A stretch of 64,000 bases of DNA from Dehalococcoidia bacterium (GTDB lineage Bacteria > Chloroflexota > Dehalococcoidia > Plut-88900). Every line of letters starts with the position of its first letter. The first letter of the stretch is position 1. Shown one piece after another: positions 5,278 through 24,696 of the stretch. The notes beneath the pieces were generated by a model, which had not been told where the DNA came from, ran no database searches, and saw nothing but the letters and a program-made list of their open reading frames with translations. The position numbers were made by a program, and so were the translations under genes. The stretch spans positions 256,001-320,000 of the forward strand of contig CBDFLQ010000007.1 in assembly GCA_965249275.1 (NCBI GenBank), read 5' to 3'.

Positions 5278-7299
5278 TTGCCTGCCCAAGATTCTCTTCA
5301 ACTCCGCCTTCAAATAGACACCCGAGAGACCTTCGGCGAAGGTCTCGAGTTCGGAGATACCGGCTCCTACGAGAAAATTGTCGGCAAAGTCCATTTCGCC
5401 GTAGACCCCGACTCCCCGGCCTACTCCTCTGTCGTAGATATCCAGTACGCCCCCCGCAACCCCGAGGGCCTTGTCGAGTTCTCCACCTCCTTCTTTCTCC
5501 TCAAACCTGCCGACATGTCCCGTGGCAACCGCCGCCTCGTCTACGACGTCAACAACCGCGGTACCAAGCTCCTCGTCCATTTCCTGAATGATGCTCCGCT
5601 TACTGACAACCCGTCCACGCCGGAGCACGCGGGAAACGGCTTTCTAATGAGGCGCGGCTATACAGTCCTCTGGTCGGGCTGGCAGGGAGACATCCTCCCC
5701 AATGAAAACCTCATGTTGATGGACCTGCCGGTCGCCTCCATAAACGGGGCGCCAATCACTGGTCCAGTCCGTGTCGAGTTCTCACCCGGTGACGAAATCA
5801 CCAAGCTGGGTCCCGAGGCAGCCCGCTGTATGCCCCTCAGTGGAAACGCTTATACGAATAGCTACCCCCCTGCCTCCCTGGACACCTCCAATGCCGTCTT
5901 CACTTTTCGAGAGTACGAGACCGACCCCCGAATCCCCTTCCACCCCGACGCCTGGCAATACGCCAAGCTCGATCCATCCGGCAAAATCGTGCCATCCCCC
6001 ACTGACGTCTATCTCCCCCAGGGATTCAAGTCAGGCTGGATATACGAGCTTGTATATATGGCCAAAGACCCACGAGTCATGGGCCTGGGCTTCACCGGCG
6101 TCCGAGACCTGATCTCCTTCTTGATAAACGCCGACACCGATTCGGAAGGCGCTCCGAACCCTGTCCGGGACAACGACGCCGGTATCGAGAAAGCCTACGG
6201 CTGGGGCTGCTCGCAGAGTGCGCGCTTTCTGCGGGAGTTCGTATACCGGGGCTTCAACGAAGACACACACGGCAGGCAGGTCTTCGCCGGTATTTCTCCC
6301 TTCGTGTCGGGCGGAGGCCGGGTATTTGTTAACTATCGATTCTCGCAGCCGGGCCGGTACCCGAGACAGCACTACGACCACCTCTACCCCTCCGACCAGT
6401 TCCCTCACGCCTATCCCGTCACCACCGACCCCCTGACAGGCAGAACCGACGGTATCCTGAAACGTCCTCCCACCGACCCTCTGGTCATTCACACCCAGTC
6501 CGCCTCCGAGTATTGGCAGCGCCGCGGCTCTCTTGTCCACACCGACTCCCTCGGCAACGACTTACCCGACCACGAACGCTCCCGCGTCTACCTCTTCGCC
6601 TCCGCAGAGCACAGCCCCGACCATATCAACGGCCCCATCTACGACCAGTTCAAGCACCCATCCAACCCTCTCAACGTCACTGCCCTACTCCGAGCCATGA
6701 TAGACAACCTTGATGATTGGGTTACGGCTGGCACTCCCCCACCCGACAGCCGTGTCCCCACCCGCGAAGCTGAGACCTGCGTTCCAGCAGAAGTCTCCAA
6801 TTCTCGCTTCCCAGCCATCCCCGGCGTCCAGGCGCCATCTGCCCCAAACCGCCTCTTCGTCCAAGACCATGGCTCCGATTTCGATCAGGGAGTTCTGTCC
6901 GTGGAGCCTCCCATCGAAGACAAGGGCAAAGAATATACGGTGTTGGTCCCACATGTGGATGCCGACGGTAACGACGTCCCCGGTATCAGAGGCCCGGAAC
7001 TCGAGGTCCCGCTTGCAACCTATACCGGCTGGAACTTCAGGCCCCAGGGCGCCGCTGAGAAGGCTATGGCCGCAGTAAACGGCAGCTATCTGCCTTTCGC
7101 CAAGACCCGCGCGGAGCGACTGGAAAAAGGTGATCCCCGCTCTTCCATCGAGGAGCGCTATGGGTCCCGACCCCACTACGTAAAGCTGGTCGCCCTAGCC
7201 TCACAGCGGCTGGTGGAGGAGCGCCTAATCCTGGAAGAGGACGCCGACCGGTTCGTGGAACAGGCGATGGTTGAGCCCGCCTTCGACGAAATAGGCTAG
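5278..7299 (+). CDS. Alpha/beta-hydrolase domain protein (tannase/3HB-oligomer-hydrolase-related)
   Basis: NRG motif, SGWQGD, nucleophile elbow GCSQSARFLR, DADGND..GIR..PLATYTGWN; TTG after AGGAGG at 5278. Confidence 0.8.
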   Translation: MPAQDSLQLRLQIDTRETFGEGLEFGDTGSYEKIVGKVHFAVDPDSPAYSSVVDIQYAPRNPEGLVEFSTSFFLLKPADMSRGNRRLVYDVNNRGTKLLVHFLNDAPLTDNPSTPEHAGNGFLMRRGYTVLWSGWQGDILPNENLMLMDLPVASINGAPITGPVRVEFSPGDEITKLGPEAARCMPLSGNAYTNSYPPASLDTSNAVFTFREYETDPRIPFHPDAWQYAKLDPSGKIVPSPTDVYLPQGFKSGWIYELVYMAKDPRVMGLGFTGVRDLISFLINADTDSEGAPNPVRDNDAGIEKAYGWGCSQSARFLREFVYRGFNEDTHGRQVFAGISPFVSGGGRVFVNYRFSQPGRYPRQHYDHLYPSDQFPHAYPVTTDPLTGRTDGILKRPPTDPLVIHTQSASEYWQRRGSLVHTDSLGNDLPDHERSRVYLFASAEHSPDHINGPIYDQFKHPSNPLNVTALLRAMIDNLDDWVTAGTPPPDSRVPTREAETCVPAEVSNSRFPAIPGVQAPSAPNRLFVQDHGSDFDQGVLSVEPPIEDKGKEYTVLVPHVDADGNDVPGIRGPELEVPLATYTGWNFRPQGAAEKAMAAVNGSYLPFAKTRAERLEKGDPRSSIEERYGSRPHYVKLVALASQRLVEERLILEEDADRFVEQAMVEPAFDEIG

Positions 7300-8270
7300 C
7301 CTACGCTTAATCTGTCCAGCGCCTCGAGCACCGGGGCCAGCTCTTCGGTTGTCTTCGGAGTGGTCGGGTCCAGGCAAATCTGTATGTGAGATATGCCCTC
7401 GCGCTCGTAACGGAGTAATTCCTCGGCTATAGCCTCAGGAGAGCCCGAAAGGGGTTTCAGAGGAGCCTGCCCCGCCAACTGATCGCTCGGAAGGCGGTCC
7501 CACCAGGGGTCGGCATTAGCGTCGGCCATTAGTACGGCGTGGCTGCGCTCCAAAGTGGCCGGGTCCCGACTCTGCTCTCGGCAAGCTTCATCGACAATCG
7601 GGCGCATTCTTTTCGCCCCCTCGACGCTGTTGAGCGTATCATCGTAGTAGGCGTTCCACATATCGGCGTATTTGGCCGTCAAGGCCATCATCCGGGGCCT
7701 GCTCGCCCCCATCAATATCGGCGGCCCCCCCGCCCGAGGCCCCTGCGGACGAAGCTCGCACGCACGTGCGCTGTAAAACTTGCCTTCAAAGTCTACCTGG
7801 CCGTTCTTAAGCAGGCCGTGGACTATCTGGATCGCCTCTTCGAATCGGCTTACCTTGTTGTCGAATGGGAACCCATAGGAATTGTACTCGAACTTGTGGT
7901 ATCCGGACCCGACACCCAGGATCAGCCTGCCATCGCTGATCTCCTCGACAGTGGAGGCCATCTTGGCAAGCAGGGCCGGGTTACGCCAGCCTATAGCCAG
8001 CACCAATGTCCCTAGCTCCACGCGGTTGGTTGTCGCCGCCAACGCCGAGAGGAGTGACCAGACTTCCCACACACCTCGGGCCTGGTCTTCGCCCTCCAGC
8101 AGGTAAATGAGGTGGTCTACAAGCCAAATCGAGTCGAAGCCAACGTCTTCGGCCAGAGCAGCGATTTCCCTGAGCTCTTGCCAATTGCTCATTCCCGGCC
8201 CTCGGAGGCCCTCCGTCTGGGGTAGCATCAAACCGACCTTCAACGTCCTCGAACCGCTTGCAACCGTCAT
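7296..8270 (-). CDS. LLM-class flavin (possibly F420)-dependent oxidoreductase
   Basis: AEDVGFDSIWLVDH, RVELGTLV, RNPALLAKMASTV, GRLILGVGSG motifs. Confidence 0.9.
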   Translation of the reverse strand: MTVASGSRTLKVGLMLPQTEGLRGPGMSNWQELREIAALAEDVGFDSIWLVDHLIYLLEGEDQARGVWEVWSLLSALAATTNRVELGTLVLAIGWRNPALLAKMASTVEEISDGRLILGVGSGYHKFEYNSYGFPFDNKVSRFEEAIQIVHGLLKNGQVDFEGKFYSARACELRPQGPRAGGPPILMGASRPRMMALTAKYADMWNAYYDDTLNSVEGAKRMRPIVDEACREQSRDPATLERSHAVLMADANADPWWDRLPSDQLAGQAPLKPLSGSPEAIAEELLRYEREGISHIQICLDPTTPKTTEELAPVLEALDRLSVG

Positions 8271-8421
8271 GTTTCACTCCTTGGACTATTTTGGGGATCC
8301 ATTCCCCGTATGGTAGTTCACAACCCCTGGCGTACGAAGAAATTATATACTTGTGCGGGCTCCCGGCCACCAGGGTGTGCGATGTTCGGCGTCCCGCCGT
8401 GGCCTTACGTTCATCGGAACA

Positions 8422-8838
8422 ATGTCTTACAACTTCCTCATACTGACTGTCTGCGCTTCTTTGTTCGCCTTGCGCGTGCTTGGGCAAGTATTGGTGGTGA
8501 CCCGAGCCCCCCGTTGGCTTCCTTCCAACAAGCACTGGTACTCAGGGCTTCTGCCCTACAGATTTCTACTGCCGGCACAGTTGCTCTTGCTGGCAATCAT
8601 GATGGCGATAACTCTGGCAGTCTATCGGGATGAGCCATTTTTTGCGACCGACCGCTGGGACCGGGCAGCGCCAATTCTCGCCGTCATTTCCGGGGTCTAC
8701 TTCGTGTCGATGGCCCTCCGCTACGTCCTGACTATGGCGCTGCGCCCCGAGCGAAGGTGGTTCAAACGCACCATCCCGATCTGGTTCCACATGGTCCTGG
8801 CCATTGCTCTTTGGGCATTCGCCGACTACCTGCGGTAG
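8422..8838 (+). CDS. Small 4-TM membrane protein of unknown function
   Basis: Hydrophobic helices with WYSGLLPY and IPIWFHMVLA motifs; 3' end overlaps the FMO gene by 13 bp. Confidence 0.7.
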   Translation: MSYNFLILTVCASLFALRVLGQVLVVTRAPRWLPSNKHWYSGLLPYRFLLPAQLLLLAIMMAITLAVYRDEPFFATDRWDRAAPILAVISGVYFVSMALRYVLTMALRPERRWFKRTIPIWFHMVLAIALWAFADYLR

Positions 8839-9950
8839 TTGCTCTCCGCAATAACTCGTGCCACCCGTTTTGCATCAATGCGAATATTGTAGAGCCCGCC
8901 TCGTCCATCGTAGTTGTGGCCGATGAAATACAGTCCCGAATAGTTTGCGCTGCACACCCTGTCTCTCCGATCGCCGAATCCACACTCATCTCTGGCCCCG
9001 TAAACACCCATCCATTCAATTGCCGCACGATATCCGGTCGCAAGTATCACCTGGTCCCCGACCCACTCGGAACCATCCGAAAAACGGACGCCGCCCTCGG
9101 TCATTTTAGCCACTCCGGGCCTCAACTTTATGCGCCCCGCTTCAATATGTTCCAGGATCCCGCGGCCGATCACGGGGACGTCCGGGCAGTCATCCTTCAT
9201 CTGTTTTCTCGGTAGCCGGGCCGACCCTGGCCTCAGCAAGCCGCCTATCAGCCCCATCCCACCCACAACGCGCCTTTGTGCAGAATTTGGGACACACGAC
9301 ATCATCCAGCCGAAATACTGGGTCGGGATGCCAGCGATGCTCTTAGGGATAACATTGGCCCCCGACCGAATGGATACTGTTACTTCTATTCCAGCTTCAG
9401 CCATCTCCGATGCAATCTCCGACCCCGAGTTCCCGATCCCGACCACCAATGCTCGCCGCCCTGGCCTATCATCGGGCCGCCGATATTCCGTGCTGTGGAA
9501 TATCACCCCTCCATAAGACGACATCCCATCAAAGTCCGGGACCACAGGCGAAGTCATAATGCCGGTGGCAACGATCACGGATCTCGCCGTATATTCGCCC
9601 CGCGTCGTTTCGACGACCCACGCACCGTTGTCCTGTCTCAGTCCGGTCACTTCCGTGCGCTCCCGTAAGGGCAATGCAAACCTGTCCGCGTATCCTGCAA
9701 CGTATGAGGTGAATTCTGAAAGTGTCGGGAACAGGGAAGTTTGGGGCGGGAAGGACATTCCCGGAAGTGCGCTAAGGTGCTTGCCTGTGTGCAACCTCAG
9801 GCCATCGTAGACGTGCCCCCACATCCAGCCTGCATGGCCTCCTCTTTCAAGCACTACGTTGGAAATGCCCCGCATTCCCAGCTGTTGAGAGGTCGCAAGC
9901 CCGGCCGGCCCTCCTCCCACGACGACAGCGTCGAAGCTCTCAACAGGCAT
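8826..9950 (-). CDS. Class B flavin-containing monooxygenase (FMO/YUCCA-like)
   Basis: GGGPAG FAD motif, YDGLRLH, FMO signature YGGVIFHSTEY, GIGNSG NADPH motif, ATGY. Confidence 0.85.
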   Translation of the reverse strand: MPVESFDAVVVGGGPAGLATSQQLGMRGISNVVLERGGHAGWMWGHVYDGLRLHTGKHLSALPGMSFPPQTSLFPTLSEFTSYVAGYADRFALPLRERTEVTGLRQDNGAWVVETTRGEYTARSVIVATGIMTSPVVPDFDGMSSYGGVIFHSTEYRRPDDRPGRRALVVGIGNSGSEIASEMAEAGIEVTVSIRSGANVIPKSIAGIPTQYFGWMMSCVPNSAQRRVVGGMGLIGGLLRPGSARLPRKQMKDDCPDVPVIGRGILEHIEAGRIKLRPGVAKMTEGGVRFSDGSEWVGDQVILATGYRAAIEWMGVYGARDECGFGDRRDRVCSANYSGLYFIGHNYDGRGGLYNIRIDAKRVARVIAESNYRR

Positions 9951-10003
9951 GGTCTTCCTTTACCTCGACGCTTGTCTTCACCCGACTGGAAGCGTCCACA
10001 GGC

Positions 10004-11662
10004 CTAAATGTTCAACTCCTTCACCACTTCCCCGTTGTCTTCCCCATCCGGCAGACCCAGCAGCTCGTCCTTGAACTGTATGTCCCTCACGGCCCGAGCC
10101 AGCTTGGCTTCGACTCGGCGGGAAGACCAACCTTCCGACATTACCTGAATGAGAGGAGCATGTAGTCGCCCCGACCTCCTCTTCTGCTCGTACTCGATGT
10201 TCAGCCCCGACAACGCTTCATCGATGGCTCTGCCAAGCCTAAGCGCCGCCTCATCGGCAACCGGGTTCTCCTTGAATTCCAGCTGCAACGCGTACCGGGA
10301 CTCCTCGGCCCGACCCACCGCACGGTAATATTCGACCTTAACACCCACAGATGCCTGTGCTTCCGACACAGCCTGGATCAATTGCGACACATGCAGCTTT
10401 TCGCCCTCTAGGTTCACCATGTCCCGGCCCTTTCGCAGGAACTCCAACATCGGCGTCCCGTTGTGGAATCCCGATACCCGCACAACGTCGTTGATGTCGT
10501 ACCGGTATAGGCCGTTGGGCGAGGTGATCAGGACGTAGTAGCTCTCACCGTCCTCCAGTTCCCCGACCGTCAGGACGCTTGGAGCGTCGCTTTCAATCTC
10601 ACCCTCTGTGATGAACTCGTAGAAATTGGCCCCAAGGGTCGGGATGCCCCTGCATCCATCATCCTCGATAGGTAGGGTCACGTACGCCTCACTTGATAGA
10701 TACCCGATGTCCCGGAATGGCGTTCCCTGCTGGAACCATGGCCGCAGCCTATCCACAGTCGATCCCACGCTCCCTCCCTTCCAGCACCCGACCAACGCAA
10801 GCTCGGGCCAATAGCCTTCCGGCCTCAGCGACCCCGAGTTAGCCACCATCCTCTCCAACGTACTAGCCCGCTTCGGGTTCGGCCTAAGCTGGGCCTTCAC
10901 TTCCTCACGCACCCCCTCTGAGATATCAAATTCTCTGGAAAGAGAGCCATCGTGGATGTCCTTTATCAGCCGGTCCCGGTACCTGTCCGCGGTCGTGATA
11001 AGCCGCAGGATAGTGCTGGGGTTGGGCGTAGCCACCAGGGAAACACGTTGCTCTATGGCAAACCGCATGATCGCGTAGTATTTCGCCTCAAAGTCCTTGA
11101 TGGTGAACACGGGGTAGGGGACCGCATAACGCCGGCGTATGACCCAGGATGCTTTCTTGTATATGTTCCCGGAAGCCGACCCGAAGGGAATGCCGCTCTC
11201 CGTATGGCCCTCTACGGCCGGACTCACAATCACCAGCGCCTTGTGATCGAGCACCTTGGGATGGTCCACGAGACATCGATATAGCCAGAGCCGAGACAGC
11301 CGTTTGGACATGCGCCCCGTGGCACGTGTCACGGGGATGGACTTAGGCTGTCCGGACGTACCGCTCGTCAGCGCGAACATATACGGATCTTCGGCGGTCA
11401 GGACGCCGCGCTCTCCCCACTTCACCTTGTCGACCCACGGGCGGAATGACTCATAGTCAGCGATGAGCACGCAGCCCTGGTAATCTTCCACCGACCGCAT
11501 CGACGAAAAACCGTGTTCCCTCCCGTACGCCGTGTCTCGGTTAGTTCTCAGGATACGTCGAAGGAGCTTCCACTGGGCTTCCTCCGGGTGCTTGGTAATA
11601 TTCTCGAACCTGCTCCACGACCACCGCCCCTTCAGCCCCGACAGTTGAGAGACGAAGGACAT
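10004..11662 (-). CDS. GH3-family acyl-adenylate/amido synthetase
   Basis: NRDTAYGREHGF, P-loop TSGTSGQPKSIP, GYLSSEA, GLYRYDINDVV, GEKL motifs. Confidence 0.92.
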   Translation of the reverse strand: MSFVSQLSGLKGRWSWSRFENITKHPEEAQWKLLRRILRTNRDTAYGREHGFSSMRSVEDYQGCVLIADYESFRPWVDKVKWGERGVLTAEDPYMFALTSGTSGQPKSIPVTRATGRMSKRLSRLWLYRCLVDHPKVLDHKALVIVSPAVEGHTESGIPFGSASGNIYKKASWVIRRRYAVPYPVFTIKDFEAKYYAIMRFAIEQRVSLVATPNPSTILRLITTADRYRDRLIKDIHDGSLSREFDISEGVREEVKAQLRPNPKRASTLERMVANSGSLRPEGYWPELALVGCWKGGSVGSTVDRLRPWFQQGTPFRDIGYLSSEAYVTLPIEDDGCRGIPTLGANFYEFITEGEIESDAPSVLTVGELEDGESYYVLITSPNGLYRYDINDVVRVSGFHNGTPMLEFLRKGRDMVNLEGEKLHVSQLIQAVSEAQASVGVKVEYYRAVGRAEESRYALQLEFKENPVADEAALRLGRAIDEALSGLNIEYEQKRRSGRLHAPLIQVMSEGWSSRRVEAKLARAVRDIQFKDELLGLPDGEDNGEVVKELNI

Positions 11663-11664
11663 AT

Positions 11665-13545
11665 CTAGCCTCCGCTTTTCACCTTCACAATGTCGTCCGC
11701 GAGTCTTTCAAGGATGTCGTCGTCAACCTCAACCCCCAGCCCCGTACCCAAGACCAGGCCCCCTCTTCCCTCGTACCCAAACATCACCGGGTCCCGGGTG
11801 AGATCCTCAGTCAGCAGGTGCGTCCCGAACGACCCTTCCACGTACTCAACTGCCGGCAAATGTGCCACGAGATGCCGCCCCGCCGCCGACAACAACGATG
11901 TCTCCCCAACCTGCGCCCCCACCTGCACCTTAACCCCTGCCTCCAATCCAAGTTCCGCTATCCGCAACGAAGAGATTAACCCTCCGCACTTCGATGCCCG
12001 GACGTTGAACACGTCACACGCCTGTTCTCGGATGAGGTTGACAGCATCATCAAAGGTGACCAGCGACTCATCGGCAATGACGTTGAGGCCGGTCTCTTGC
12101 CGGACTCGCCGCATGCCTTCCAAATTCGAGGCGGCCACCGGTTGCTCCACAGCAGTTATGTCAAACATCCGTAGCTGGTTCAAAGCCGAACCAGCCTCGG
12201 GGCCCGACCAGGCGCCGTTAGCATCCACCCTGATATCTACATCTTTTCCGGCAACATCCCTGACCGCCTGCAGCCTCTCAACGTCCTTCTCCACACCCAC
12301 CTTTACTTTAAGATTCGTAAACCCGGCTTGCATATACCGTTCCGCCGTGGCACGCGCTATCTGCGGGTCAGTCGCATCTATCAGGCCGGTGTACGTCACA
12401 TGCCCTCTGACCGGCCCCAGCCACGAGGCAATAGATTCCCCGGAACGCTTGAAAGCCCAGTCCAGCAAGGCCAGCTCCAAGGCGCACATCGTTGCGTTCC
12501 AGGCCACAACACCGGTGCCTTTCGAAAGGCGTTCAGCCCACTCCCCCACAAAAGACCCTATCTGTTCCACAGCCCCCACGCCCGACCCAAACTCCAGCTT
12601 CATCACCTCCGGCCCAATCCTGCTCTTCAGTGCTTCGACCACCCCGGCCACGTCCTCCCCGGTAACATAGGCCCTCGGCAACCCCTCCCCATACCCCCTT
12701 GACCCGTCACTCCCCGTTAGCCGGACAACTACTGAATCGCTGGTCGAGCGGCTCGTCTTGGAGTGCACGAAGGCTCGATTAAACGGGATGTGCAAAGGAA
12801 ATACTTCCAGGCTCACGATCCTGCTCGGCCCCGGCCTCCGACCCAGCTTGGACCCGAGGGGGAAATAACGTTTCAGCACAACGTTACGCACAAACGTCCT
12901 GCTCAGTATCTGTTCCACTTCATCGGGCCGGAACCCGTAGTAAGAAATGTAACCCTGAAGTGTTCGCTTCCCTTCTTCTGCGTGCCGGACATCCACTTCT
13001 CCATGCAGCGTGAACCACTGCACCGCCTCCACTGAAAGCCCGTAGTGCCCGGTCATCGACTCCGCTATCCCGTCGCTCGCCCGAGACAGGAACAGCTCGA
13101 ATGCAACGGTTTCCAGCAGCATCGAGAGTCCCAGGTCTCGGAGACTCTCATACGGCACCCTCCCCGACCCAAACTCCCGTCGAGCCTCGTCCGCCTCGGC
13201 ATTGAGCCGTATTACGTCGGCTTCGGAAAACCCGATACCCCTGGCTAGGTCTATCAGCATCTCCGGGTGCGCCTTTTCTCCCTCGTACAGCCCCATCTCC
13301 TCCATCAGGTTCCCCTTAACCATGTCCGCAGCGTCCCGTGGCGCGACAGCGAACAAAAATGAAAGTATCTGCACAGAGTTCAGGTGCGTGACAATGAAGC
13401 TACGGAAGAACTCGCGCAGGTCTTCTCGGGCCATATCGCCCGACAGTATGGCTAGCACTCGAGAATCGGCTAGAGCCTCGGTGGTAGTCCCTTCCAGGGT
13501 CTTCTTAATTGTGTTCTCAATCGAATTATGTAATGTGTCTGGCAA
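11665..13545 (-). CDS. Fusion: heme-oxygenase-like diiron oxidase (N-term) + MLE-subgroup enolase (C-term)
   Basis: N-term EE..H..E..HxxxDxxH (E83,H93,E150,H181,D185,H188); C-term KVK, RVDANG, EQP, ADES, NVRASKCGG, EGS. Confidence 0.88.
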   Translation of the reverse strand: MPDTLHNSIENTIKKTLEGTTTEALADSRVLAILSGDMAREDLREFFRSFIVTHLNSVQILSFLFAVAPRDAADMVKGNLMEEMGLYEGEKAHPEMLIDLARGIGFSEADVIRLNAEADEARREFGSGRVPYESLRDLGLSMLLETVAFELFLSRASDGIAESMTGHYGLSVEAVQWFTLHGEVDVRHAEEGKRTLQGYISYYGFRPDEVEQILSRTFVRNVVLKRYFPLGSKLGRRPGPSRIVSLEVFPLHIPFNRAFVHSKTSRSTSDSVVVRLTGSDGSRGYGEGLPRAYVTGEDVAGVVEALKSRIGPEVMKLEFGSGVGAVEQIGSFVGEWAERLSKGTGVVAWNATMCALELALLDWAFKRSGESIASWLGPVRGHVTYTGLIDATDPQIARATAERYMQAGFTNLKVKVGVEKDVERLQAVRDVAGKDVDIRVDANGAWSGPEAGSALNQLRMFDITAVEQPVAASNLEGMRRVRQETGLNVIADESLVTFDDAVNLIREQACDVFNVRASKCGGLISSLRIAELGLEAGVKVQVGAQVGETSLLSAAGRHLVAHLPAVEYVEGSFGTHLLTEDLTRDPVMFGYEGRGGLVLGTGLGVEVDDDILERLADDIVKVKSGG

Positions 13546-13568
13546 AAATGTTCACTTTCCTAACCGAC

Positions 13569-15779
13569 TCACGCGTCCGAAAGTCTCCCCTCTTGGCGCA
13601 GGTGTATCCGGGCTAACTTCAACTCCTCGTAATCAAACTCGTCCCCTAAACGCTCCTTCACAGGCCCGAGCAAGGCGCTGCCCGACTCCCGAAACGCTTC
13701 TTCGATAATGCCCAATCTTCCAGGCTCGGGGGCAACATGGGTCAGGTCCAACCGAAATCCCTGGTAGGTAATGCGTTCCATGTGCCCGATAACGGTGTTC
13801 CTGGCCAGACCCCGCTCGTTGGCTATCTGGTCGATTGACAGTCCTTGCGCCAGCATCTCTCTTGTAGTTTCGTGGGTGCCGCTAAGGGGTCCCCCGCGCG
13901 AATATCCGTTACGGTTTGCGCCCCCATTCCGAGGCGCCAGTGCCAGGAGTTCAGCGCCCGTCGGCACTTCCACGTTGTTCGCCTCAACGTACTCCTTGAT
14001 GACGCTGACGAACTCAGGGCCGTACTCCTGCAGCTTCACCTCCCCAACCCCGTGCATCCGAGAAAACTCCTCTTTGCTGCACGGGTAAGCTGCAGCCATG
14101 TGGCGCAGGGAGACGTCGCCGAATACAACGTAAGGCGGGACTCCGCGTTCCTCGGCCAGCCGCTTCCGCAGGGCACGCAGCTCTTGAAAAAGGTCTTCAT
14201 CGTATTTGAACGCATCGCCACCGGGCCTCGACCTCCCAGCTCGTCTGTCCATTGTCGGCTTGACCAATGTTAGCGACTCCCGTTGCTTGAGGAACGCCCA
14301 GCCCTCGGGGGAGAGGGAAAGGGTAGGATAGTCTCCTTCGTTTCGGACCAGCAGTCCCTTCGCCTGAATCTGGCCGAAGACCTCCTTGAGTTGACGCTTG
14401 CTGAAGTCTTTGACAATGCCGTAAACGCTCAATTGGTCGTGCCCCAATGCCAACACCCGCTTGTCCCGGCTCCCGACCAGCACGTCGATCACATGGTTCG
14501 CCCCGAACCTCTCGTCGGTCCGCACTACCGCCGAGAGTACCTTCTGAGCGACTTCCGTGGCGTCGAACCTATTGTCGGTATCGATGCAGATGTCACATGC
14601 CCCGCAGTCTTCCTCCTCCCATTCCTCTCCGAAATATCTGAGCAGGAATCGCCGTCGGCAGGTCGGAAGCTGGGCGTATTCCACCATCTTGTCCAGCTTC
14701 TGCTGGGCGTTGCGCCGCTCCCTCTCATCTTCCATCTGCCCGATGAAATACTCCTGCTTCACCCTGTCCCCGAGAGTGAAGAAGAGGACGCAGTCACTTG
14801 GCAGCCCGTCCCTCCCGGCCCGGCCCGTTTCCTGGTAGTAACCCTCCACCGACTTCGGCAGATTATGATGCACGACGAGCCGCACATCCGGTTTGTCGAT
14901 GCCCATGCCAAAAGCGATAGTCGCAACGATGATGGGAACCCTGTCCCGTATGAAGTCATCCTGGGTCTGCCTCCGGAGTTCGGGCGTCAGTCCCGCATGG
15001 TATGGAAGGGCGGGAAAACCCTGTCCGTTCAGCTTACGAGCCAAGTCCTCAGTCTCCTGGCGCGAGAAGCAATAGATGATGACCGACTGGTCCCGATGCT
15101 TTTCAAGGAGTGAGATCAGCTCACCCCAGGAGTCTGTCTTGGGCCGCACCGAGTAGCTGAGGTTCGCCCTGTTGAAGCTCGACAGGTACACCCGACCCCG
15201 CTCCAGCCCCAGCTGCTGGACGATGTCCTCCCGCACCTTCTCGGTGGCGGTTGCTGTCAGGGCAATCACCGGCACCGACGGAAAGTCCCGCCTCAGGTCC
15301 AGCAGGTTGCGGTAATCCGGCCGAAACTCGTGACCCCACTCGGAGATGCAGTGAGCCTCATCAATGGCGATTAAACTCAGGTCCAACTCTTGAAGAAACC
15401 GTCGAAACAGAGGCGCAGGCAGACGTTCGGGCGCCACGTACAGGAGCTTAACTAATCCGGCCTTTACTTCGCTCTGCACTCGATCTATTTCCTTCCAGGA
15501 CAGGGAGCTGTTGATAAACCGGGCGGCTATCCCGTTGGCATTCAGCGCGTCTACCTGGTCCTTCATCAGGGCAATCAGCGGAGAGACCACCAACGTGACT
15601 CCTTCGAATATCAGTGCAGGCAGTTGATAACAGAGCGACTTACCACCACCCGTTGGCATCAGCGCAAGGCTGTCCCGTCCAGCGAGGACATTGCCGATTA
15701 TCTCGCCCTGCGGTGCCCAGAAGCTGTCATAACCGAAGCGCGACCTCAGGACGGCAAGTGTATCGACAGCGATGTTCAT
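13569..15779 (-). CDS. recQ: ATP-dependent DNA helicase RecQ
   Basis: MPTGGGKSLCYQLP, DEAHCISEWGHEFRP, QETGRAGRDG, Zn-binding, RQC, HRDC and C-terminal HTH regions. Confidence 0.97.
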   Translation of the reverse strand: MNIAVDTLAVLRSRFGYDSFWAPQGEIIGNVLAGRDSLALMPTGGGKSLCYQLPALIFEGVTLVVSPLIALMKDQVDALNANGIAARFINSSLSWKEIDRVQSEVKAGLVKLLYVAPERLPAPLFRRFLQELDLSLIAIDEAHCISEWGHEFRPDYRNLLDLRRDFPSVPVIALTATATEKVREDIVQQLGLERGRVYLSSFNRANLSYSVRPKTDSWGELISLLEKHRDQSVIIYCFSRQETEDLARKLNGQGFPALPYHAGLTPELRRQTQDDFIRDRVPIIVATIAFGMGIDKPDVRLVVHHNLPKSVEGYYQETGRAGRDGLPSDCVLFFTLGDRVKQEYFIGQMEDERERRNAQQKLDKMVEYAQLPTCRRRFLLRYFGEEWEEEDCGACDICIDTDNRFDATEVAQKVLSAVVRTDERFGANHVIDVLVGSRDKRVLALGHDQLSVYGIVKDFSKRQLKEVFGQIQAKGLLVRNEGDYPTLSLSPEGWAFLKQRESLTLVKPTMDRRAGRSRPGGDAFKYDEDLFQELRALRKRLAEERGVPPYVVFGDVSLRHMAAAYPCSKEEFSRMHGVGEVKLQEYGPEFVSVIKEYVEANNVEVPTGAELLALAPRNGGANRNGYSRGGPLSGTHETTREMLAQGLSIDQIANERGLARNTVIGHMERITYQGFRLDLTHVAPEPGRLGIIEEAFRESGSALLGPVKERLGDEFDYEELKLARIHLRQEGRLSDA

Positions 15780-16011
15780 GGAGTGAAAAGCCTAACTCTC
15801 GAGATCGACCAAGGGAACTAATGGAATATTACCCTTAATGCAACTTGGAAAGAAGCTTGGCTGCCGGGATGCACCACGAAGGTTCCGGCGTGATCGAGTA
15901 GTTCGAACCATCTATTGAGTCATCCCAGCCACCCGACCTCCACACACTCACCCCTATATAATACCGACAAGCAAGCATTGTCCCGGCAAATGTTCGTTAA
16001 GGCGTACAACG

Positions 16012-17274
16012 ATGCCCCAAGACCCCCTAGATAAAGGCCCAGGCCCCCTCACCGGCGTAAGAGTCCTCGACTTTACCAGGGCTCTGGCGGGCCCTTTCTG
16101 TACCCGGCTCCTCTGCGACCTGGGAGCCGAGGTGATCAAGATCGAACCCCCGCCCGGCGACCAGTCCCGAGACTTCATGTACGTAACCGAGGAGGGCATC
16201 AGCGGTTACTTCATGCAGCACAATGTCGGGAAAAAAGGCTTGTGTATCGACCTGCGCTTGCCCTCCGGCATCGCGCTTGCGAAGGCGCTGGCAGATCTCT
16301 CCGACGTGGTTGTCGAGAACTACAGGCCCGGTGTCATGGGCCGCCTTGGGCTCGACTACCCCACCCTTACCAAGACTAATCCCGGACTCGTGATGTGCTC
16401 CATATCGGGATACGGGCAGGAAGGCAGCTACGTCCATAGGCCCGCTGCCGATCACACTGCCCAGGCCATGAGCGGCGTAGCACATCTCAACGGAGACCCC
16501 GATGGCCGCCCTCGACTCGTCGGGACCGCTGTAGGCGACACAGTAGGAGGAGCCCATGCCTTCGGGGCCATCTGCGCCGCTCTATACAGGCGGGCCGTAA
16601 CCCAAAAGGGCGAATACATAGACCTCTCCCTGGTCGACAGCCTGATTTGGCAGAACGAGTGGGCCTTCGAGTATCGCCTCCTGAGCGGTGGCCGGGACCT
16701 CCCAAAGAAAAGCCGACCAGTGGTTAACGTACATGGCATCTACAAGGCCCGGGACGGCTACATCACACTCGCCGCTGTTACTCAGGAGGGATGGGAGAAC
16801 CTGACGAGAGTCATGGAAAAGCCTGCATTGGCCTCCGACCCTCGATTCCTCACTCCACGGGACAGAGAGCTTCGCTGGAAAGACGTAGACCGGATCATCG
16901 AAGACTGGGTGATGACCTTCCCCTCGGCCCGAGCCGCCGTCCACGCTTTTACCGACGTCGGAGGTCTGGTAGGCAGCGAAGTGCTCTCCGTCCCGGACGT
17001 CTTGGAAGACCCTCGCATGGAGGAAAGAGGCCTGTTAGCTGATGTGGTAGATCCAGTCCTCGGGCCTGTGAAGGTGCTCAACTCGCCTTTCAAGTTCGCC
17101 GGGTCCATGTCCGGGCCCCGAGCCCACGCGCCCTTACGCGGTGAGCACACCGTCGCCGTCCTCCGCGACCTGTTGGGACTGTCAAGGGAGCGAGTCTTGG
17201 AGTTGATGGGAGAAGGCGCAGTTATCATCGAAGAGCGTGCCGTCGAAGCGGCCTTACGAGACCTGGGCGTTTAA
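16012..17274 (+). CDS. CaiB/BaiF family (class III) CoA-transferase
   Basis: GPLTGVRVLDF..AGPF..DLGAEVIKIEPP, ENYRPG, catalytic Asp in 'VGDTVGG'. Confidence 0.93.
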   Translation: MPQDPLDKGPGPLTGVRVLDFTRALAGPFCTRLLCDLGAEVIKIEPPPGDQSRDFMYVTEEGISGYFMQHNVGKKGLCIDLRLPSGIALAKALADLSDVVVENYRPGVMGRLGLDYPTLTKTNPGLVMCSISGYGQEGSYVHRPAADHTAQAMSGVAHLNGDPDGRPRLVGTAVGDTVGGAHAFGAICAALYRRAVTQKGEYIDLSLVDSLIWQNEWAFEYRLLSGGRDLPKKSRPVVNVHGIYKARDGYITLAAVTQEGWENLTRVMEKPALASDPRFLTPRDRELRWKDVDRIIEDWVMTFPSARAAVHAFTDVGGLVGSEVLSVPDVLEDPRMEERGLLADVVDPVLGPVKVLNSPFKFAGSMSGPRAHAPLRGEHTVAVLRDLLGLSRERVLELMGEGAVIIEERAVEAALRDLGV

Positions 17275-17294
17275 TACCTCGAGCCGGAGGAGCC

Positions 17295-18512
17295 ATGAAA
17301 CAAGAGAGCCTCGTCCAGGACGAAGAACGGGTTATCACCGACGAAATGCTGGCTTTGGCCCGCAGCCGCATCGGTGTCCCGATGAAGGTACACGTTCCTT
17401 TCAATGAGTTCGTTACCGTGGACGCCATTAGGCACTTCGCCCACGGCACCGGCGACGACAACCCCCTTTACTGCGACGGGAACTACGGCGCCAAGACCCG
17501 ATGGGGCAACACGATTGCCCCTCCCCTCTTCTACAGAAGCACAGGCAACCCCGAGCCCCGAGACTGGAGCAAGGAAGACAGTGTCAGGGCCCGGGACCCC
17601 CTCAGTGGCATCCACTCCTGGTACGTGGGCGAGACCATCCACTTGCTCCGGCCCATCTTCCCAGGCGACCAGCTATTCGCCCGACGTTTTCGCCAGGACC
17701 TCCTCGAAAAGCGGAGCTCCTTTACCGGCGGCCGAGCAGTCATAGAGGTAGTTCGACAGGAGTTCAGAAACCAGCGCGGAGAATTGGTGGTCGTGGCAGA
17801 CGAGAAAGAGTTCCGCGGAGGCCGGCAAAAGAAGTGGGGGGAGCGAACGAAATACGCCCACTATGAGCGCCAGAGCTACACTCCGGAGGACCTCGAAACC
17901 CTTGACCGCGCCTACGAGTCGGAAGCGAGAAGAGGCGGCTCTCTGCGATACTGGGAGAACGTAGTCCAAGGTGAGGCATTGCCTTTCCTCGTGAAGGGCC
18001 CCCTCACCGTCACCGACATGGTCAACTGGAAAATGGGTGGTGGCTTGGCCATGCTGTTCCACGGCGCCCACCGCCTAGCCTATCAGTGGCGCAAAGCCCA
18101 CCCCCGAGCCTATGTTACTAACGCCGACGGTATCCCCGACATAGCAGAATCGGTGCACTGGGACGAGCATATAGCCCGTCTCACCGGAAACCCTTACCCC
18201 TACGACTTCGGAGAGCAAAGGGTGGCTTGGCTCACCCACCTCATCACGGAATGGATGGGGGACGACGCTTGGCTCCTCTCTCTTGAAAGCCAAGTCCGCC
18301 GCTTTGTCTACATAGGGGATACTGTCTGGATCAAAGGTGAGGTGACGGATAAAGAGGTCAGAGACGGCGAGCACCGAGTGACGATCAACGTGAAGGCAGA
18401 AGACCACCGGAATGAAGTAACCGCCATCGGCACCGCGACGGTCCTCCTCCCATCCCGAGCCGAAGGCCCCGTGACCCTTCCACCGAAACTGAAGCTGGCC
18501 TCGGCAGGTTAG
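17295..18512 (+). CDS. Double hot-dog (MaoC-like) acyl-CoA dehydratase
   Basis: DAIRHFA.GTGDDNPLY, IAPP, VHWD..A...G.PYPYD, WMGDD motifs. Confidence 0.85.
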   Translation: MKQESLVQDEERVITDEMLALARSRIGVPMKVHVPFNEFVTVDAIRHFAHGTGDDNPLYCDGNYGAKTRWGNTIAPPLFYRSTGNPEPRDWSKEDSVRARDPLSGIHSWYVGETIHLLRPIFPGDQLFARRFRQDLLEKRSSFTGGRAVIEVVRQEFRNQRGELVVVADEKEFRGGRQKKWGERTKYAHYERQSYTPEDLETLDRAYESEARRGGSLRYWENVVQGEALPFLVKGPLTVTDMVNWKMGGGLAMLFHGAHRLAYQWRKAHPRAYVTNADGIPDIAESVHWDEHIARLTGNPYPYDFGEQRVAWLTHLITEWMGDDAWLLSLESQVRRFVYIGDTVWIKGEVTDKEVRDGEHRVTINVKAEDHRNEVTAIGTATVLLPSRAEGPVTLPPKLKLASAG

Positions 18513-18552
18513 TCTCTAACATACCGGCGGTAGAGGATCCTTTGTGATGACA

Positions 18553-20955
18553 TCACGCCAGCACCCCTTCCGCCTGTAACCTTCTGATTTCTTCCTCAGA
18601 CATGTGGAGCAGTCCACCAAAGACATAGTCGTTGTCTTCACCAAAACGGTGGCAGCGCTCTATCTGTGCGGGCGTTTCAGATAAATGGATGAAAGGCCCG
18701 GGGTACTCTACAGAGCCTATCTCCGGGTCATCGACACCGGTGAAAAACCCCCGGGAGCGGAGATTGAGATCTTCGAAAATGCGTTTCCCATCCTGGACTA
18801 CCCCCGCTGGCACACCGGCTTCTTGAAGAAAGTTCATTACTGTCTCGGGTGCGCGCTCCCGGGTCCAATCCTCTATCAGTTGGTCCAACTCATCCTGATT
18901 GGCGTGCCGACCGGCCATATCCCCAAACCTCGCATCCCTACACCATGTGGGACTCCCCAACGCCCGACAAAGGCCTTCCCATTCTTCCTCGCTGCCGACC
19001 GCAATGGCGCACCATACATCGCTGCCCTTGCACCGATATACGCTGTGGGGAGCCATCCACGCATGTCGATTGCCCAAAGGCTGGGATACGGTCCCGTTGA
19101 CGAAATAGTCCAGGTACTCCGTCCCGAGGACCGCCGCCATTGCCTCAGTCTGGGCCAGCTCGATGAGTTGCCCCTCACCGGTTCGGTCCCTGTGGCGCAA
19201 TGCAGCCATAATGGCGACGCTGCCCATCGCCGCGCTCAAATAATCGGGAGTCCAGACCGGAGGGCCTGCGGGTTCCGGGTCGTCCGGGTAAGACCACAGG
19301 TGATAAAGACCGGTGATGCTCATGGCAACCGACGCCATCCCCAGATAATCTCGCTGGAATCCCGAGAGCCCGAATGCCGGGAGCCGAGCCATGAGGATGT
19401 CTTTCCGTAGCGCTTTCAGCTCTTCGTAGCCTAAACCCCACCTCTCCATCACCCGGGGACTGAAGTTCTCCACCACGACATCGCAAAATGGCACAAGCCG
19501 TCGAATAACCTCGCGTCCCTCCTCCGTACCCATGTTGACCGTAACACTTCGCTTGTTCCGGTTGACATCTGCGAAGGTTACCTTTTGCTGGAGAACTACC
19601 TTCGGGTCCAGGTCCGCTCTCGCCCGACCCCTCTGCTGCCTTGCATCCGACTCGACCTTTATAACCTCCGCACCGTTCTCACCCAAGACTTGTGTCAGCA
19701 CCGGCCCCGCTATGGCAAAAGTGAAGTCCAGGACACGAATCCCTTGAAGAGGCAAACTCGTTCCAGGCTTACCTGTCTGTCCCGCTTCAACCGAAGGCCG
19801 CAGCACCGGCGTTTTGGTTGCCGAAAGAACAGTGAGCACGTCTACGTTATGTTCACTTAAGCCGGGGGCGGGAGCGAAGATCGCACCGGGGGTCTCACTC
19901 ATCCTTAAGGGGCTGCACACTAGCCTGCTTCTGCCCGATACCGGGTGCTCCACGTCCACGAACAGGCCCCGTTCCAAAGCATATGGGTCCCGAGTGAATT
20001 CGTCGGGCCGGTTGATCGGGCCAATTGGGATCCGGTATTCCTGTCCTTTTCGGAACAGTTCGTCCTTGGACAACCCCCTCATGAACTGCAGTACTTGGGG
20101 CTCTATGAATTCGAGGTTTGCATTGCGTACGTGTCGGTTCTCCCAAATCGGGTCCATGAGGGCTTCCGGCCTGCCCATCCATTCAAGCAAATTGTGCCAG
20201 TGCCCACGAGGAATGATTACAACGTGGCAGAAACCGTCGCTGCCCGGGTAAACGCCCTCCGGCATTCCTCCACCCAAAGGGCCTCGGTTCCCCTCTCGCA
20301 CCAGGACGGCCCTATTGGCGCTGTAGTTCACCACTATGTGCTGCTGTGATGCACTCACTTCTTGGCACGACACATCCACCCGCTGCCCTAGGCCCGTGCT
20401 CTCCCGGTGTCTTAAAGCCATGAGCAGGCCAAATGCGGCGTAGGTTGACGCCAGCTGGTAGGGCTGACATTCAGGCTCGGCCAAAGGCGCCCGTGCGGGC
20501 GAACCGCACAGGTACATTACACCACCCATGGCCGATACCACGATGCTCGGCGCCTTGAAGCCGCTGTAAGGCCCATCGACCCCAAATCCCGTGATCGACG
20601 CCACCACCAGGGCCGGGTTTTCTTTCCTCAGGCTCTCGTAGTCAAAAGCCCCCTCCACCGGGGTCTCTATTATGGCATCGGCGGTGCGGGCCAGTCCTCG
20701 GAATGTCTCCCTCCCTTGGCCCGTGGTTATGTCGAGCGTGACACTCTTCTTGTTGGTGTTCAGGTGGAGGAAGCGCAGGCTTGCTTCGTCATCAGGCGCC
20801 CCGTGCCTGAACGGGCCTATGCGCCTTGCCGGATCGCCCCCAGGAGGCTCGACCTTTATAACTTCCGCACCGAGATCGGCTAGCAGACGACCACAGAACT
20901 GCCCCTCCACCCCTGCCATATCCAGAATGCGTATCCCGTCTAAAGCCGTCTTCAT
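18553..20955 (-). CDS. Two-domain fused CaiB/BaiF CoA-transferase
   Basis: Two LxGxRVLD..GAEVIKVE modules; Asp of 'TPDYLSA' in the second domain. Confidence 0.92.
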   Translation of the reverse strand: MKTALDGIRILDMAGVEGQFCGRLLADLGAEVIKVEPPGGDPARRIGPFRHGAPDDEASLRFLHLNTNKKSVTLDITTGQGRETFRGLARTADAIIETPVEGAFDYESLRKENPALVVASITGFGVDGPYSGFKAPSIVVSAMGGVMYLCGSPARAPLAEPECQPYQLASTYAAFGLLMALRHRESTGLGQRVDVSCQEVSASQQHIVVNYSANRAVLVREGNRGPLGGGMPEGVYPGSDGFCHVVIIPRGHWHNLLEWMGRPEALMDPIWENRHVRNANLEFIEPQVLQFMRGLSKDELFRKGQEYRIPIGPINRPDEFTRDPYALERGLFVDVEHPVSGRSRLVCSPLRMSETPGAIFAPAPGLSEHNVDVLTVLSATKTPVLRPSVEAGQTGKPGTSLPLQGIRVLDFTFAIAGPVLTQVLGENGAEVIKVESDARQQRGRARADLDPKVVLQQKVTFADVNRNKRSVTVNMGTEEGREVIRRLVPFCDVVVENFSPRVMERWGLGYEELKALRKDILMARLPAFGLSGFQRDYLGMASVAMSITGLYHLWSYPDDPEPAGPPVWTPDYLSAAMGSVAIMAALRHRDRTGEGQLIELAQTEAMAAVLGTEYLDYFVNGTVSQPLGNRHAWMAPHSVYRCKGSDVWCAIAVGSEEEWEGLCRALGSPTWCRDARFGDMAGRHANQDELDQLIEDWTRERAPETVMNFLQEAGVPAGVVQDGKRIFEDLNLRSRGFFTGVDDPEIGSVEYPGPFIHLSETPAQIERCHRFGEDNDYVFGGLLHMSEEEIRRLQAEGVLA

Positions 20956-23619: not shown

Positions 23620-24696
23620 TTGAGGGTTGTCAGCCTCAATACTCTGCGAATCTACCGTCAATCGGGCGTCGCCACCCGGCTCGCGGTCGGCTCCTCAGTT
23701 CTCCTTCTCCTCGTCTTGGCAACCGCCCTTGCTTCACTCAGTCTCGGGCCCGTCAACATACCCGTAGACCACGTCGCTTCAATTGTCCTGTCATATCTCG
23801 GACTCGATTTCGCGACGTTTGGACGCACCGAACAGCTCGTCATCGAGCAGATCAGGATTCCAAGGATTCTGGTCGGGGCCCTTGTCGGCATGGCCTTGGG
23901 CGTCGCTGGCGCAACCATGCAAGGCCTCTTCCGTAACCCGATGGCCGACCCCGGTATCATCGGCATCTCCGCAGGCGGCGCGGTGGGAGCAGTTGTGGCC
24001 ATCGCCTCTGGGCTGGCCAGTCTCTTCTTCTTGGCCCTGCCCGCATTTGCATTCGTAGGCGCGGTCGCTGCCTCATTCCTGGTCTACGGCATAGCCGCCG
24101 TCGGTGGCCGCTTCTCAATGGCCACGCTGCTTCTTGCGGGAGTGGCAGTTAACGCATTCCTGGGGGCCATTGTCTCCGCAATCATCATCCTCTTGCCCGA
24201 CAATGGAGCCCTCCGGGAGATATTGTTCTGGCTCGCGGGCGGCCTCGACTCCCGCTCCTGGGAGCACGTTCGTATCGCCGCTCCACTGATACTCGGCGGG
24301 ACGGCGGTGATAGTAGTCATGGCACGAGACCTGAATCTGCTAACTCTCGGCGACGATGAAGCTCGCTCCATGGGTGTCCGAGTCGGCCTCACCCGCGTCT
24401 CCCTTCTAACAGCAGCAGCTCTAGCGACGGGCGCCGCCGTGGCCGTGAGCGGGACTATAGCCTTTGTTGGGCTCGTCACGCCCCATATTCTTCGCCTGGT
24501 CCTCGGCCCCGATCACCGGGTGCTGATTCCCATGAGCGCCCTTGGAGGTGCTGTGTTCGTCGTACTGGCCGACACGGTTGCCAGGACCATCATCCAACCC
24601 GCCGAGTTTCGTGTAGGTGTCCTAACGGCATTTGTCGGGGCGCCCTTTTTCATTTTTCTACTCATCAGGAACAACCGACAGGTGTATTCATTGTGA
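23620..24696 (+). CDS. btuC: Cobalamin ABC transporter permease (FecCD/BtuC)
   Basis: IRIPR, QGLFRNPMADPGIIG, LGDDEARSMG, IAFVGLVTPH; behind B12 riboswitch. Confidence 0.9.
   Translation: MRVVSLNTLRIYRQSGVATRLAVGSSVLLLLVLATALASLSLGPVNIPVDHVASIVLSYLGLDFATFGRTEQLVIEQIRIPRILVGALVGMALGVAGATMQGLFRNPMADPGIIGISAGGAVGAVVAIASGLASLFFLALPAFAFVGAVAASFLVYGIAAVGGRFSMATLLLAGVAVNAFLGAIVSAIIILLPDNGALREILFWLAGGLDSRSWEHVRIAAPLILGGTAVIVVMARDLNLLTLGDDEARSMGVRVGLTRVSLLTAAALATGAAVAVSGTIAFVGLVTPHILRLVLGPDHRVLIPMSALGGAVFVVLADTVARTIIQPAEFRVGVLTAFVGAPFFIFLLIRNNRQVYSL

What the first reader, a model, noticed from the sequence alone, without database searches (positions are those of the whole stretch)
8826..13545. Candidate undescribed biosynthetic operon: HO-like diiron oxidase-enolase fusion + GH3 synthetase + YUCCA-like FMO
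Seen: three co-oriented genes with 2-bp and 53-bp gaps directly downstream of recQ, each with intact catalytic motifs. Known: HO-like diiron oxidases (UndA, BesC, SznF, CADD) do O2-dependent decarboxylation, desaturation or N-oxygenation. GH3 enzymes adenylate carboxylic acids and conjugate them (plant IAA and jasmonate conjugation). YUCCA-type FMOs oxidise indole-pyruvate. Inference: a compact pathway oxidises a carboxylic acid, isomerises or cyclises it, activates and amidates it, then oxygenates it, giving a small signal-like or lipid-like product. I know of no characterised cluster with this combination; the GH3+YUCCA pairing echoes plant hormone metabolism.
Basis: partly seen in the sequence, partly recalled or inferred. 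Interest (0 to 1): 0.85.

Follow-up and report, generated by a model that had tools for sequence, protein, structure and literature searches.

The report
Diiron oxidase–enolase–GH3 lipoamino-acid module
These genes are one version of an unstudied bacterial gene module, found here in several distant lineages, that most likely joins a fatty acid to an amino acid and then chemically edits the product; the flavin enzyme is an optional extra, and nothing points to plant-hormone chemistry.

Summary
The three genes, their gaps (2 and 53 bp) and their domains are real. One correction: the enolase-superfamily domain has Arg516 where two-base racemases have their second catalytic Lys, as do 138 of 145 aligned subfamily rows. 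It is the Arg-type enolase + GH3, preceded by an interchangeable enzyme: the HDO here, an unrelated OlsE-like membrane hydroxylase, or an α/β-hydrolase. GH3 follows the fusion in 52 of 53 metagenome loci; the FMO does so in only 2 of 23, but its close orthologs occurred only in genomes carrying the fusion (9 of 9). Best reading: GH3 makes an N-acyl amino acid (as OlsH does), the HDO oxidises it, and the one-base enolase eliminates or rearranges it. All substrates are inferred. Ten literature searches found no description of the cluster. This scan had already noted the same trio and sister versions on other DNA. Verdict: a real, uncharacterised variant of GH3 aminolipid biosynthesis with a probable new enolase-superfamily reaction; the auxin/YUCCA analogy is unsupported.

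The parts
12850..13545 (-). N-terminal HDO domain (about aa 1-232) of the fusion protein: heme-oxygenase-like fold with a CADD-type 3His/3carboxylate dimetal site (E83, H93, E150, H181, D185, H188); core
   Evidence: pLDDT 92.8; best Foldseek hit CtCADD, TMq 0.70
11665..12825 (-). C-terminal MLE-subgroup enolase-superfamily domain of the same ORF (about aa 241-626): K413/K415, D441/E467/D492, Arg516 in place of the strand-6 Lys, E570; conserved cap residues H261, R266, R291, Y293; core
10004..11662 (-). GH3-family acyl-acid amido synthetase, 552 aa; its GGAGG ribosome-binding site lies inside the end of the fusion gene; core
8826..9950 (-). Short class B flavin-dependent monooxygenase, 374 aa; accessory
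8422..8838 (+).
13569..15779 (-). recQ; upstream neighbour in this genus only, not part of the system
   Evidence: TIGR01389 above cut-off; recQ in 3 of 22 loci with room

Best explanation
A biosynthetic module for a modified N-acyl amino acid (lipoamino acid: a membrane lipid or a lipid signal). Step 1 (family chemistry known; substrates inferred): GH3 adenylates a fatty acid with ATP and amidates it with an amino acid. Step 2 (inferred): the O2-dependent HDO hydroxylates or desaturates the conjugate, most likely on the amino-acid head group. Step 3 (inferred from anatomy): the fused Mg2+ enolase removes the alpha-proton with the strand-2 Lys. With Arg516 in place of a second base, it performs a one-base reaction (elimination of a beta leaving group giving an N-acyl dehydroamino acid, or an MLE-like rearrangement) rather than racemisation. 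The membrane protein is a partner of the oxidase step (substrate presentation, export or electron supply; unknown). The FMO adds an optional oxygenation in some Dehalococcoidia. About 0.65 for the umbrella claim 'modified N-acyl amino acid'; 0.4 for this specific order and chemistry.
For: The only characterised bacterial GH3 I found in print, OlsH, makes N-acyl ornithine from fatty acid + ATP (PMC12493201). Closest folds to the enolase domain are N-succinyl-Arg/Lys racemase and dipeptide epimerases, which act at C-alpha of N-acylated amino acids. The strand-6 Lys is an acid/base only in racemases and is electrostatic in OSBS and MLE (10.1101/2022.03.03.481873, PMC12006748); here it is Arg in 138 of 145 rows. 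Partner swap: in 3 other Dehalococcoidia loci the HDO slot holds a membrane FA_hydroxylase-family gene, for one of which the only NCBIfam match is OlsE (172 bits, cut-off 475). OlsE hydroxylates the ornithine head group (PMC12971839) and is unrelated to the HDO. The same enolase active site occurs beside LpxL-like acyltransferases and FadL where GH3 is missing, so it is regularly paired with an acyl-transfer enzyme. Aas sits upstream in many Binatia-type loci. Enolase and GH3 trees both put the 20 HDO-type loci on one side of a branch (99/99; 96).
Against: No substrate is shown for any of the enzymes. The GH3 is far from OlsH (83 bits vs cut-off 620), and there is no OlsG or OlsI beside it. 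OlsE hydroxylates C4, which would not give a beta leaving group. E570 aligns with the MLE acid Glu in one alignment but is one residue off in others. Arg can act as a base in other enzyme families (recalled), so racemisation is not excluded; 5 of 145 rows keep Lys. The hydrolase versions have no oxidase at all. The tree clustering is partly built in, because the HDO loci were collected by similarity to the query. Co-transcription was not shown.
Confidence: 0.4

Rival explanations
1. Same N-acyl amino acid scaffold, but the enolase is an epimerase that makes the D-amino-acid conjugate, using Arg516 or another residue as the second base; the HDO decorates independently.
For: Top structural hits are racemases and epimerases of N-acyl amino acids and dipeptides. 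K519, homologous to NSAR R266, is kept in 143 of 145 rows. Hydrolase versions lack an oxidase that could install a leaving group.
Against: The defining second Lys is Arg in 138 of 145 rows. The papers read tie racemase activity to that Lys acting as acid/base. MLEs also keep a basic residue at the K519 position without racemising.
Confidence: 0.2
2. Acid-first route: the HDO (or a thioesterase acting on 3-hydroxyacyl-ACP) supplies a free 3-hydroxy fatty acid, the enolase dehydrates it to a 2-enoic acid (DSF-like signal; recalled analogy), and GH3 then conjugates it.
For: Gene order fusion then GH3. UndA binds fatty acids with C3 near the cluster (PMC13108848). Hydrolase_4 directly upstream in 5 of 7 other Chloroflexota loci. 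FadL (5 of 8) and sensor kinases (6 of 8) flank the GH3-less versions.
Against: Conserved cap residues H261/R266/R291/Y293 suggest a polar or anionic pocket rather than an alkyl channel (positional inference, not modelled). The HDO is closer to CADD than to UndA (TMq 0.70 vs 0.58). An OlsE-like substitute points to a head-group substrate.
Confidence: 0.2
3. Two-step amidation like PurC/PurB (recalled analogy): GH3 forms an N-acyl-aspartate and the enolase eliminates fumarate, leaving a primary amide of an acid first modified by the HDO.
For: Very tight GH3-enolase coupling (52 of 53; 7 of 7), a one-base active site, and two conserved cap arginines that could hold a second carboxylate.
Against: No direct evidence for Asp as the amine. 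It does not readily explain the LpxL-like versions.
Confidence: 0.1
4. Plant-hormone-like (auxin/jasmonate) or catabolic unit: a YUCCA-like FMO makes or degrades an aromatic acid that GH3 conjugates.
For: The FMO has class B motifs shared with YUCCA (YUCCA motifs recalled). SAR202-type genomes expand catabolic enolases and monooxygenases (PMC6946804). cNMP-binding genes flank the hydrolase versions, which hints at signalling.
Against: The FMO is absent from most loci. The recurring partners are lipid enzymes. An ATP-consuming amide ligase at the core fits synthesis. SAR202's expanded enolases are mostly mandelate-racemase type, not this subfamily.
Confidence: 0.1

Closest known systems
OlsH/OlsI (with OlsG) ornithine-lipid pathway of Singulisphaera acidiphila (PMC12493201; abstract, opening of text, section 8 and passages read)
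   Same: A bacterial GH3 with the three nucleotide-binding motifs; expected fatty acid + ATP + amino acid chemistry; sister versions of the module carry an alpha/beta-hydrolase, as the olsH operon does.
   Different: 83 bits against a cut-off of 620; no OlsG/OlsI here; paired instead with an HDO-enolase fusion. 'Enolase' and 'cycloisomerase' do not occur in that paper's main text.
HDO superfamily: CtCADD, UndA, BesC, SznF, HrmI, AetD, FlcD (review PMC13108848, parts 1-2 of 6 read)
   Same: Alpha-7 fold and the 3His/3carboxylate ligand set; CADD is the best sequence and structure match.
   Different: At most 19% identity to any solved HDO listed; TIGR04305 32 bits against 200; fused to an enolase domain. 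None of the examples in the parts I read is such a fusion or works with a GH3.
[quoted passage not shown]
   Same: Fold (target TM 0.92 to 2p88), KxK, D/E/D metal ligands, probable strand-8 Glu.
   Different: Strand-6 Lys replaced by Arg; own motifs (H261, R266, PRxYVTGE, GxQVGE, EGSxG); about 27% identity at best; below every NCBIfam cut-off.
OlsE ornithine-lipid head-group hydroxylase (PMC12971839; passages read)
   Same: Its family fills the HDO's slot in sister clusters.
   Different: Not in this window; an unrelated membrane fold; hydroxylates C4 of ornithine.
N-acyl dehydrotyrosines (stieleriacines, thalassotalic acids; PMC12479983, passages read)
   Same: The product class (N-acyl dehydroamino acid) that my best reading predicts exists in bacteria.
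   Different: Proposed to be made by NAS + nitroreductase; GH3, enolase and dehydratase are not mentioned in that paper's main text.
Plant GH3/JAR1 and YUCCA
   Same: GH3 fold and motifs; class B FMO motifs.
   Different: No evidence for indole or jasmonate substrates; the FMO is optional.

Membership tests
HDO superfamily | 3His/3carboxylate ligands on core helices | tested here: met
   E83/H93/E150/H181/D185/H188 align to CADD and are invariant in 31 of 31 rows
HDO superfamily | Heme-oxygenase-like helical fold | tested here: met
   Model pLDDT 92.8; CtCADD E 6e-7, TMq 0.70
HDO superfamily | Dimetal cofactor and O2-dependent turnover | not testable with these tools
   needs protein work
CADD-type self-sacrificing pABA synthase | TIGR04305 cut-off; sacrificial Tyr near the N-terminus (residue number recalled) | tested here: not met
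   32 vs 200 bits; CADD Tyr27 aligns to a Leu in the profile consensus
Enolase superfamily, MLE subgroup | Two-domain fold, KxK on strand 2, Asp/Glu/Asp metal ligands | tested here: met
   K413 145/145, K415 143, D441 144, E467 145, D492 145; fold
N-acylamino-acid racemase / dipeptide epimerase | Second catalytic Lys at the end of strand 6 | tested here: not met
   Arg516; Arg in 138 of 145 rows, Lys in 5
Muconate cycloisomerase / OSBS | NCBIfam cut-offs; catechol or menaquinone gene context | tested here: not met
   TIGR02534 148 vs 335; OSBS models at most 96 bits vs 288; no such neighbours among the ORFs scanned
GH3 acyl-acid amido synthetases | Three Pfam domains and three nucleotide-binding motifs | tested here: met
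   motifs as given in PMC12493201
OlsH pathway | NF052613 cut-off; olsI/olsG in the operon | tested here: not met
   83.4 vs 620 bits; neighbours differ
OlsH pathway | Ornithine as the amine substrate | not testable with these tools
   needs an assay
Class B flavin monooxygenase | Two GxGxxG motifs, FxGxxxHxxxY/F, ATGY (motif definitions recalled) | tested here: met
YUCCA | Grouping with YUCCA sequences; indole-3-pyruvate decarboxylating oxygenation | not testable with these tools
   No YUCCA-named model or chain among the listed hits; best NCBIfam match ArsO 162 vs 425

The most novel reading that the evidence does not exclude
The Arg-type enolase is a new enolase-superfamily activity: a one-base eliminase on N-acyl amino acids. 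It anchors a modular pathway, present in several phyla and possibly in archaea, in which two unrelated diiron oxidases (a soluble HDO and a membrane OlsE-like enzyme) or a hydrolase, and two unrelated acyl-transfer enzymes (GH3, LpxL-like), are swapped in. The product would be an unrecognised class of dehydro- or rearranged lipoamino acids acting as membrane lipids or as signals read by adjacent cNMP-domain proteins and sensor kinases.
Probability: 0.35. Interest if true: 0.8.

Novelty: new variant of a known kind. Interest (0 to 1): 0.58.

Why it matters
Bacterial GH3 enzymes are widespread, but I found only one (OlsH) characterised, and only about a dozen HDOs are validated (PMC13108848). 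This compact, soluble two-protein core gives direct tests of a new GH3 clade, a new HDO branch and a large unassigned enolase subfamily with an unusual Arg active site; public records mostly label these muconate cycloisomerase or Ala-Glu epimerase. If the product is a new lipoamino acid, it would be a candidate lipid or signal for uncultured Dehalococcoidia and Binatia-type bacteria. Against a higher score: no substrate can be fixed from sequence, the product class has a precedent, and the scan has already flagged this module several times.

Tried and rejected
Expression: two metatranscriptome assemblies hold relatives of the region at a small share (0.07). Their contigs (mostly 85-95% alike) cover 29-30 of 30 bins and bridge the FMO/GH3 and GH3/fusion junctions, but they also bridge the divergent intergenic region near 8300, so DNA carry-over cannot be excluded; inconclusive. 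Promoter/terminator scan of 8200-16100: 2 promoter-like sites against 2.4 expected, 1 terminator against 6.0; uninformative. Plasmids: no close enolase (listed best rows about 30% identity) or GH3 (best 28-31%). Viral contigs: no GH3 relative. ESM Atlas: only unnamed clusters for the membrane protein and nothing above 0.81 for a 253-aa neighbour in L026. Apparent 880-aa GH3 fusions in L202/L204 were shadow-frame extensions; the real upstream gene is an FA_hydroxylase in another frame. Three of the 15 rows in the membrane-protein alignment were wrong-frame ORFs, so it shows no invariant columns. A biotin link (BioB follows the cluster in many Binatia-type loci; BioE precedent seen only as a search listing) was set aside: BioB is absent from the Dehalococcoidia loci and replaced by a class IV aminotransferase in others. 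CADD-like pABA synthesis rejected (see membership). The IQ-TREE run for GH3 did not finish and was replaced by FastTree. The identity of PDB 8z12, the FMO's top hit, was not found in the library. No complex prediction was run. Literature searches found no paper describing a GH3 + enolase or HDO + enolase cluster; the library lacks most subscription journals, and I read no supplements.
Full report
Observation. The window holds three co-oriented minus-strand ORFs: 11665-13545 (626 aa), 10004-11662 (552 aa) and 8826-9950 (374 aa), with gaps of 2 and 53 bp, 23 bp downstream of recQ. Pfam gives an HDO domain plus an MR/MLE enolase domain, a three-domain GH3, and a class B FMO. None of the three reaches an NCBIfam cut-off; recQ does. 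The host is a Dehalococcoidia by the titles of records with 93-95% identical GH3. A fourth gene, 8422-8838 (+), encodes a 138-aa hydrophobic protein of no known family that overlaps the FMO end.

Anatomy. The HDO model is confident (pLDDT 92.8) and closest to CtCADD (TMq 0.70). E83, H93, E150, H181, D185 and H188 match CADD's ligands and are invariant in 31 of 31 rows; it is not a CADD ortholog (32 vs 200 bits). The enolase domain is closest to N-succinyl-Arg/Lys racemase and dipeptide epimerases, but the strand-6 Lys is Arg516. I aligned 145 rows: the window protein, P0080 and 143 of the other 149 listed representatives, with 6 fragments dropped. Arg stands at this position in 138 and Lys in 5; K413, E467 and D492 are invariant; H261 (129), R266 (122), R291 (135), Y293 (129) and E570 (141) are conserved. 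Two papers (passages read) state that this Lys is an acid/base in racemases but only electrostatic in OSBS and MLE, so the anatomy favours a one-base reaction. That step is inference. GH3 carries the three motifs listed in PMC12493201.

What is conserved. In four of eight same-genus genomes the order recQ-fusion-GH3-FMO-membrane gene is intact; G010 and G016 keep only fusion + GH3 within 20 kb. Of 28 genome loci found with GH3, I tallied 26, leaving out two archaeal ones: HDO and enolase upstream in 24 of 24 with room, membrane gene in 14 of 25, FMO in 6 of 25 (one a stub), recQ in 3 of 22. Of the best 80 of 136 metagenome loci, GH3 follows the fusion in 52 of 53 with room (the miss has a truncated enolase), the membrane gene in 22 of 31 and the FMO in 2 of 23. 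These loci are related to one another and are not independent counts.

The FMO is optional but not random. Among 401 Dehalococcoidia genomes, 17 have the fusion-type enolase and 9 have a close FMO ortholog; all 9 are among the 17. It is adjacent to GH3 in 6 and lies 64-445 kb away in 3, where it is still paired with the membrane gene. Only four candidates per genome were scored, and five of the nine are one genus.

Sister versions show the logic. (i) Among 401 Chloroflexota genomes, 7 further genomes have the enolase, each with GH3 directly downstream. Five have a Hydrolase_4 directly upstream, one is an HDO fusion, and one has a second GH3 and a hydrolase nearby; the six non-HDO loci all have cNMP-binding-domain genes close by. 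(ii) Three Dehalococcoidia loci read membrane gene-FA_hydroxylase-GH3-enolase; a fourth is cut by a contig end. The one hydroxylase I scanned matches OlsE below cut-off and is unrelated to the HDO. I looked for this version after earlier scan notes mentioned it. (iii) G1022 has the unfused form, membrane gene-HDO-enolase-GH3, with Aas upstream. (iv) Among 121 genomes of G432's phylum, 8 have the enolase without GH3 in the fetched stretch; an LpxL-like acyltransferase lies directly upstream in 5 and about 3.6 kb upstream in 1, FadL is adjacent in 5 and a sensor kinase is near in 6. The enolase motifs are the same in all contexts. Trees place the 20 HDO-type loci on one side of a branch for both the enolase (99/99) and GH3 (96), partly by how they were collected. 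The converse does not hold fully: three more distant GH3 loci had no enolase in the stretch fetched.

How it most likely works. Established family chemistry: GH3 adenylates an acid and amidates it with an amino acid; OlsH does so with fatty acids and ornithine. Inferred: the product is an N-acyl amino acid whose free carboxylate binds the enolase Mg2+; a diiron oxidase oxidises the head group; the Arg-type enolase eliminates or rearranges it; the membrane protein assists the oxidase versions; the FMO tailors in some lineages. I give 0.65 to 'modified N-acyl amino acid' and 0.4 to this order and chemistry. Rivals: epimerase 0.2, acid-first desaturation 0.2, N-acyl-Asp lyase 0.1, hormone-like or catabolic 0.1. 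Points against the best reading: OlsE acts at C4 rather than C3, the hydrolase versions have no oxidase, the register of E570 is ambiguous, and no substrate or co-transcription is shown (RNA contigs inconclusive).

Comparison and novelty. It works like the OlsH route in its first step but fails membership (83 vs 620 bits, no OlsG/OlsI). It is an HDO and an MLE-subgroup enzyme by fold and ligands, but not a member of any named family I could test. YUCCA membership could not be tested and has no contextual support. Ten literature searches found no description of the cluster; subscription journals are largely missing and no supplements were read. The scan's own notes already record this trio and several sister versions in other genomes; these are unchecked AI notes and I count only what I tested. 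Verdict: real, uncharacterised, a new variant of GH3-dependent aminolipid biosynthesis with a probable new enolase-superfamily reaction; interest 0.58.

Noticed in passing
L144:8376-11118 (G000:C7 about 913.4-916.1 kb): The window's own genome has a second, degraded copy of the 3' part of the region (FMO residues 164-374, a frameshifted membrane gene, luciferase-like gene, pieces of the hydrolase), 82% identical to window 6766-9426 and joined to a CoA-transferase remnant; fusion and GH3 are missing.
   Followed up: partly
L014 and L015 (G005): G005 carries two copies of the cluster about 380 kb apart; the second has lost HDO residues 1-114 and has a frameshift in the FMO.
   Followed up: partly
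L045:1554-9626, L046: Two archaeal loci (one titled Nanoarchaeota) have a divergent Arg-type enolase and a GH3 in one co-oriented run with an HD-domain gene and two poorly annotated genes; 2OG-Fe(II) oxygenase genes lie divergently.
   Followed up: partly
L158-L166: A GH3-less version: LpxL-like acyltransferase + Arg-type enolase with FadL and PAS/GAF sensor kinases; looks like a fatty-acid-derived signal locus.
   Followed up: partly
L138-L143: Hydrolase-enolase-GH3 versions are flanked by stand-alone cNMP-binding proteins and, in two loci, cNMP-patatin fusions; some of these hydrolases have GxCxG in place of GxSxG.
   Followed up: partly
L018:11413-12318: A cNMP-binding + TIR (CAP12/Pycsar-effector-like) gene lies 1 kb downstream of GH3 in G010; probably an unrelated island.
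   Followed up: no
L029, L031, L032, L035 and many of L058-L127: In Binatia-type loci the module sits between an Aas (MFS-acyltransferase-acyl-ACP synthetase) gene and bioB.
   Followed up: partly
window:23342-23524 (+): Cobalamin riboswitch (RF00174, 106.5 bits) upstream of ABC-transporter-like genes at 23620 onward.
   Followed up: yes
window:5179-7299 and 16012-20955: Neighbours are an Abhydrolase_10 protein, a luciferase-like oxidoreductase and CoA-transferase III genes; syntenic within the genus only.
   Followed up: no
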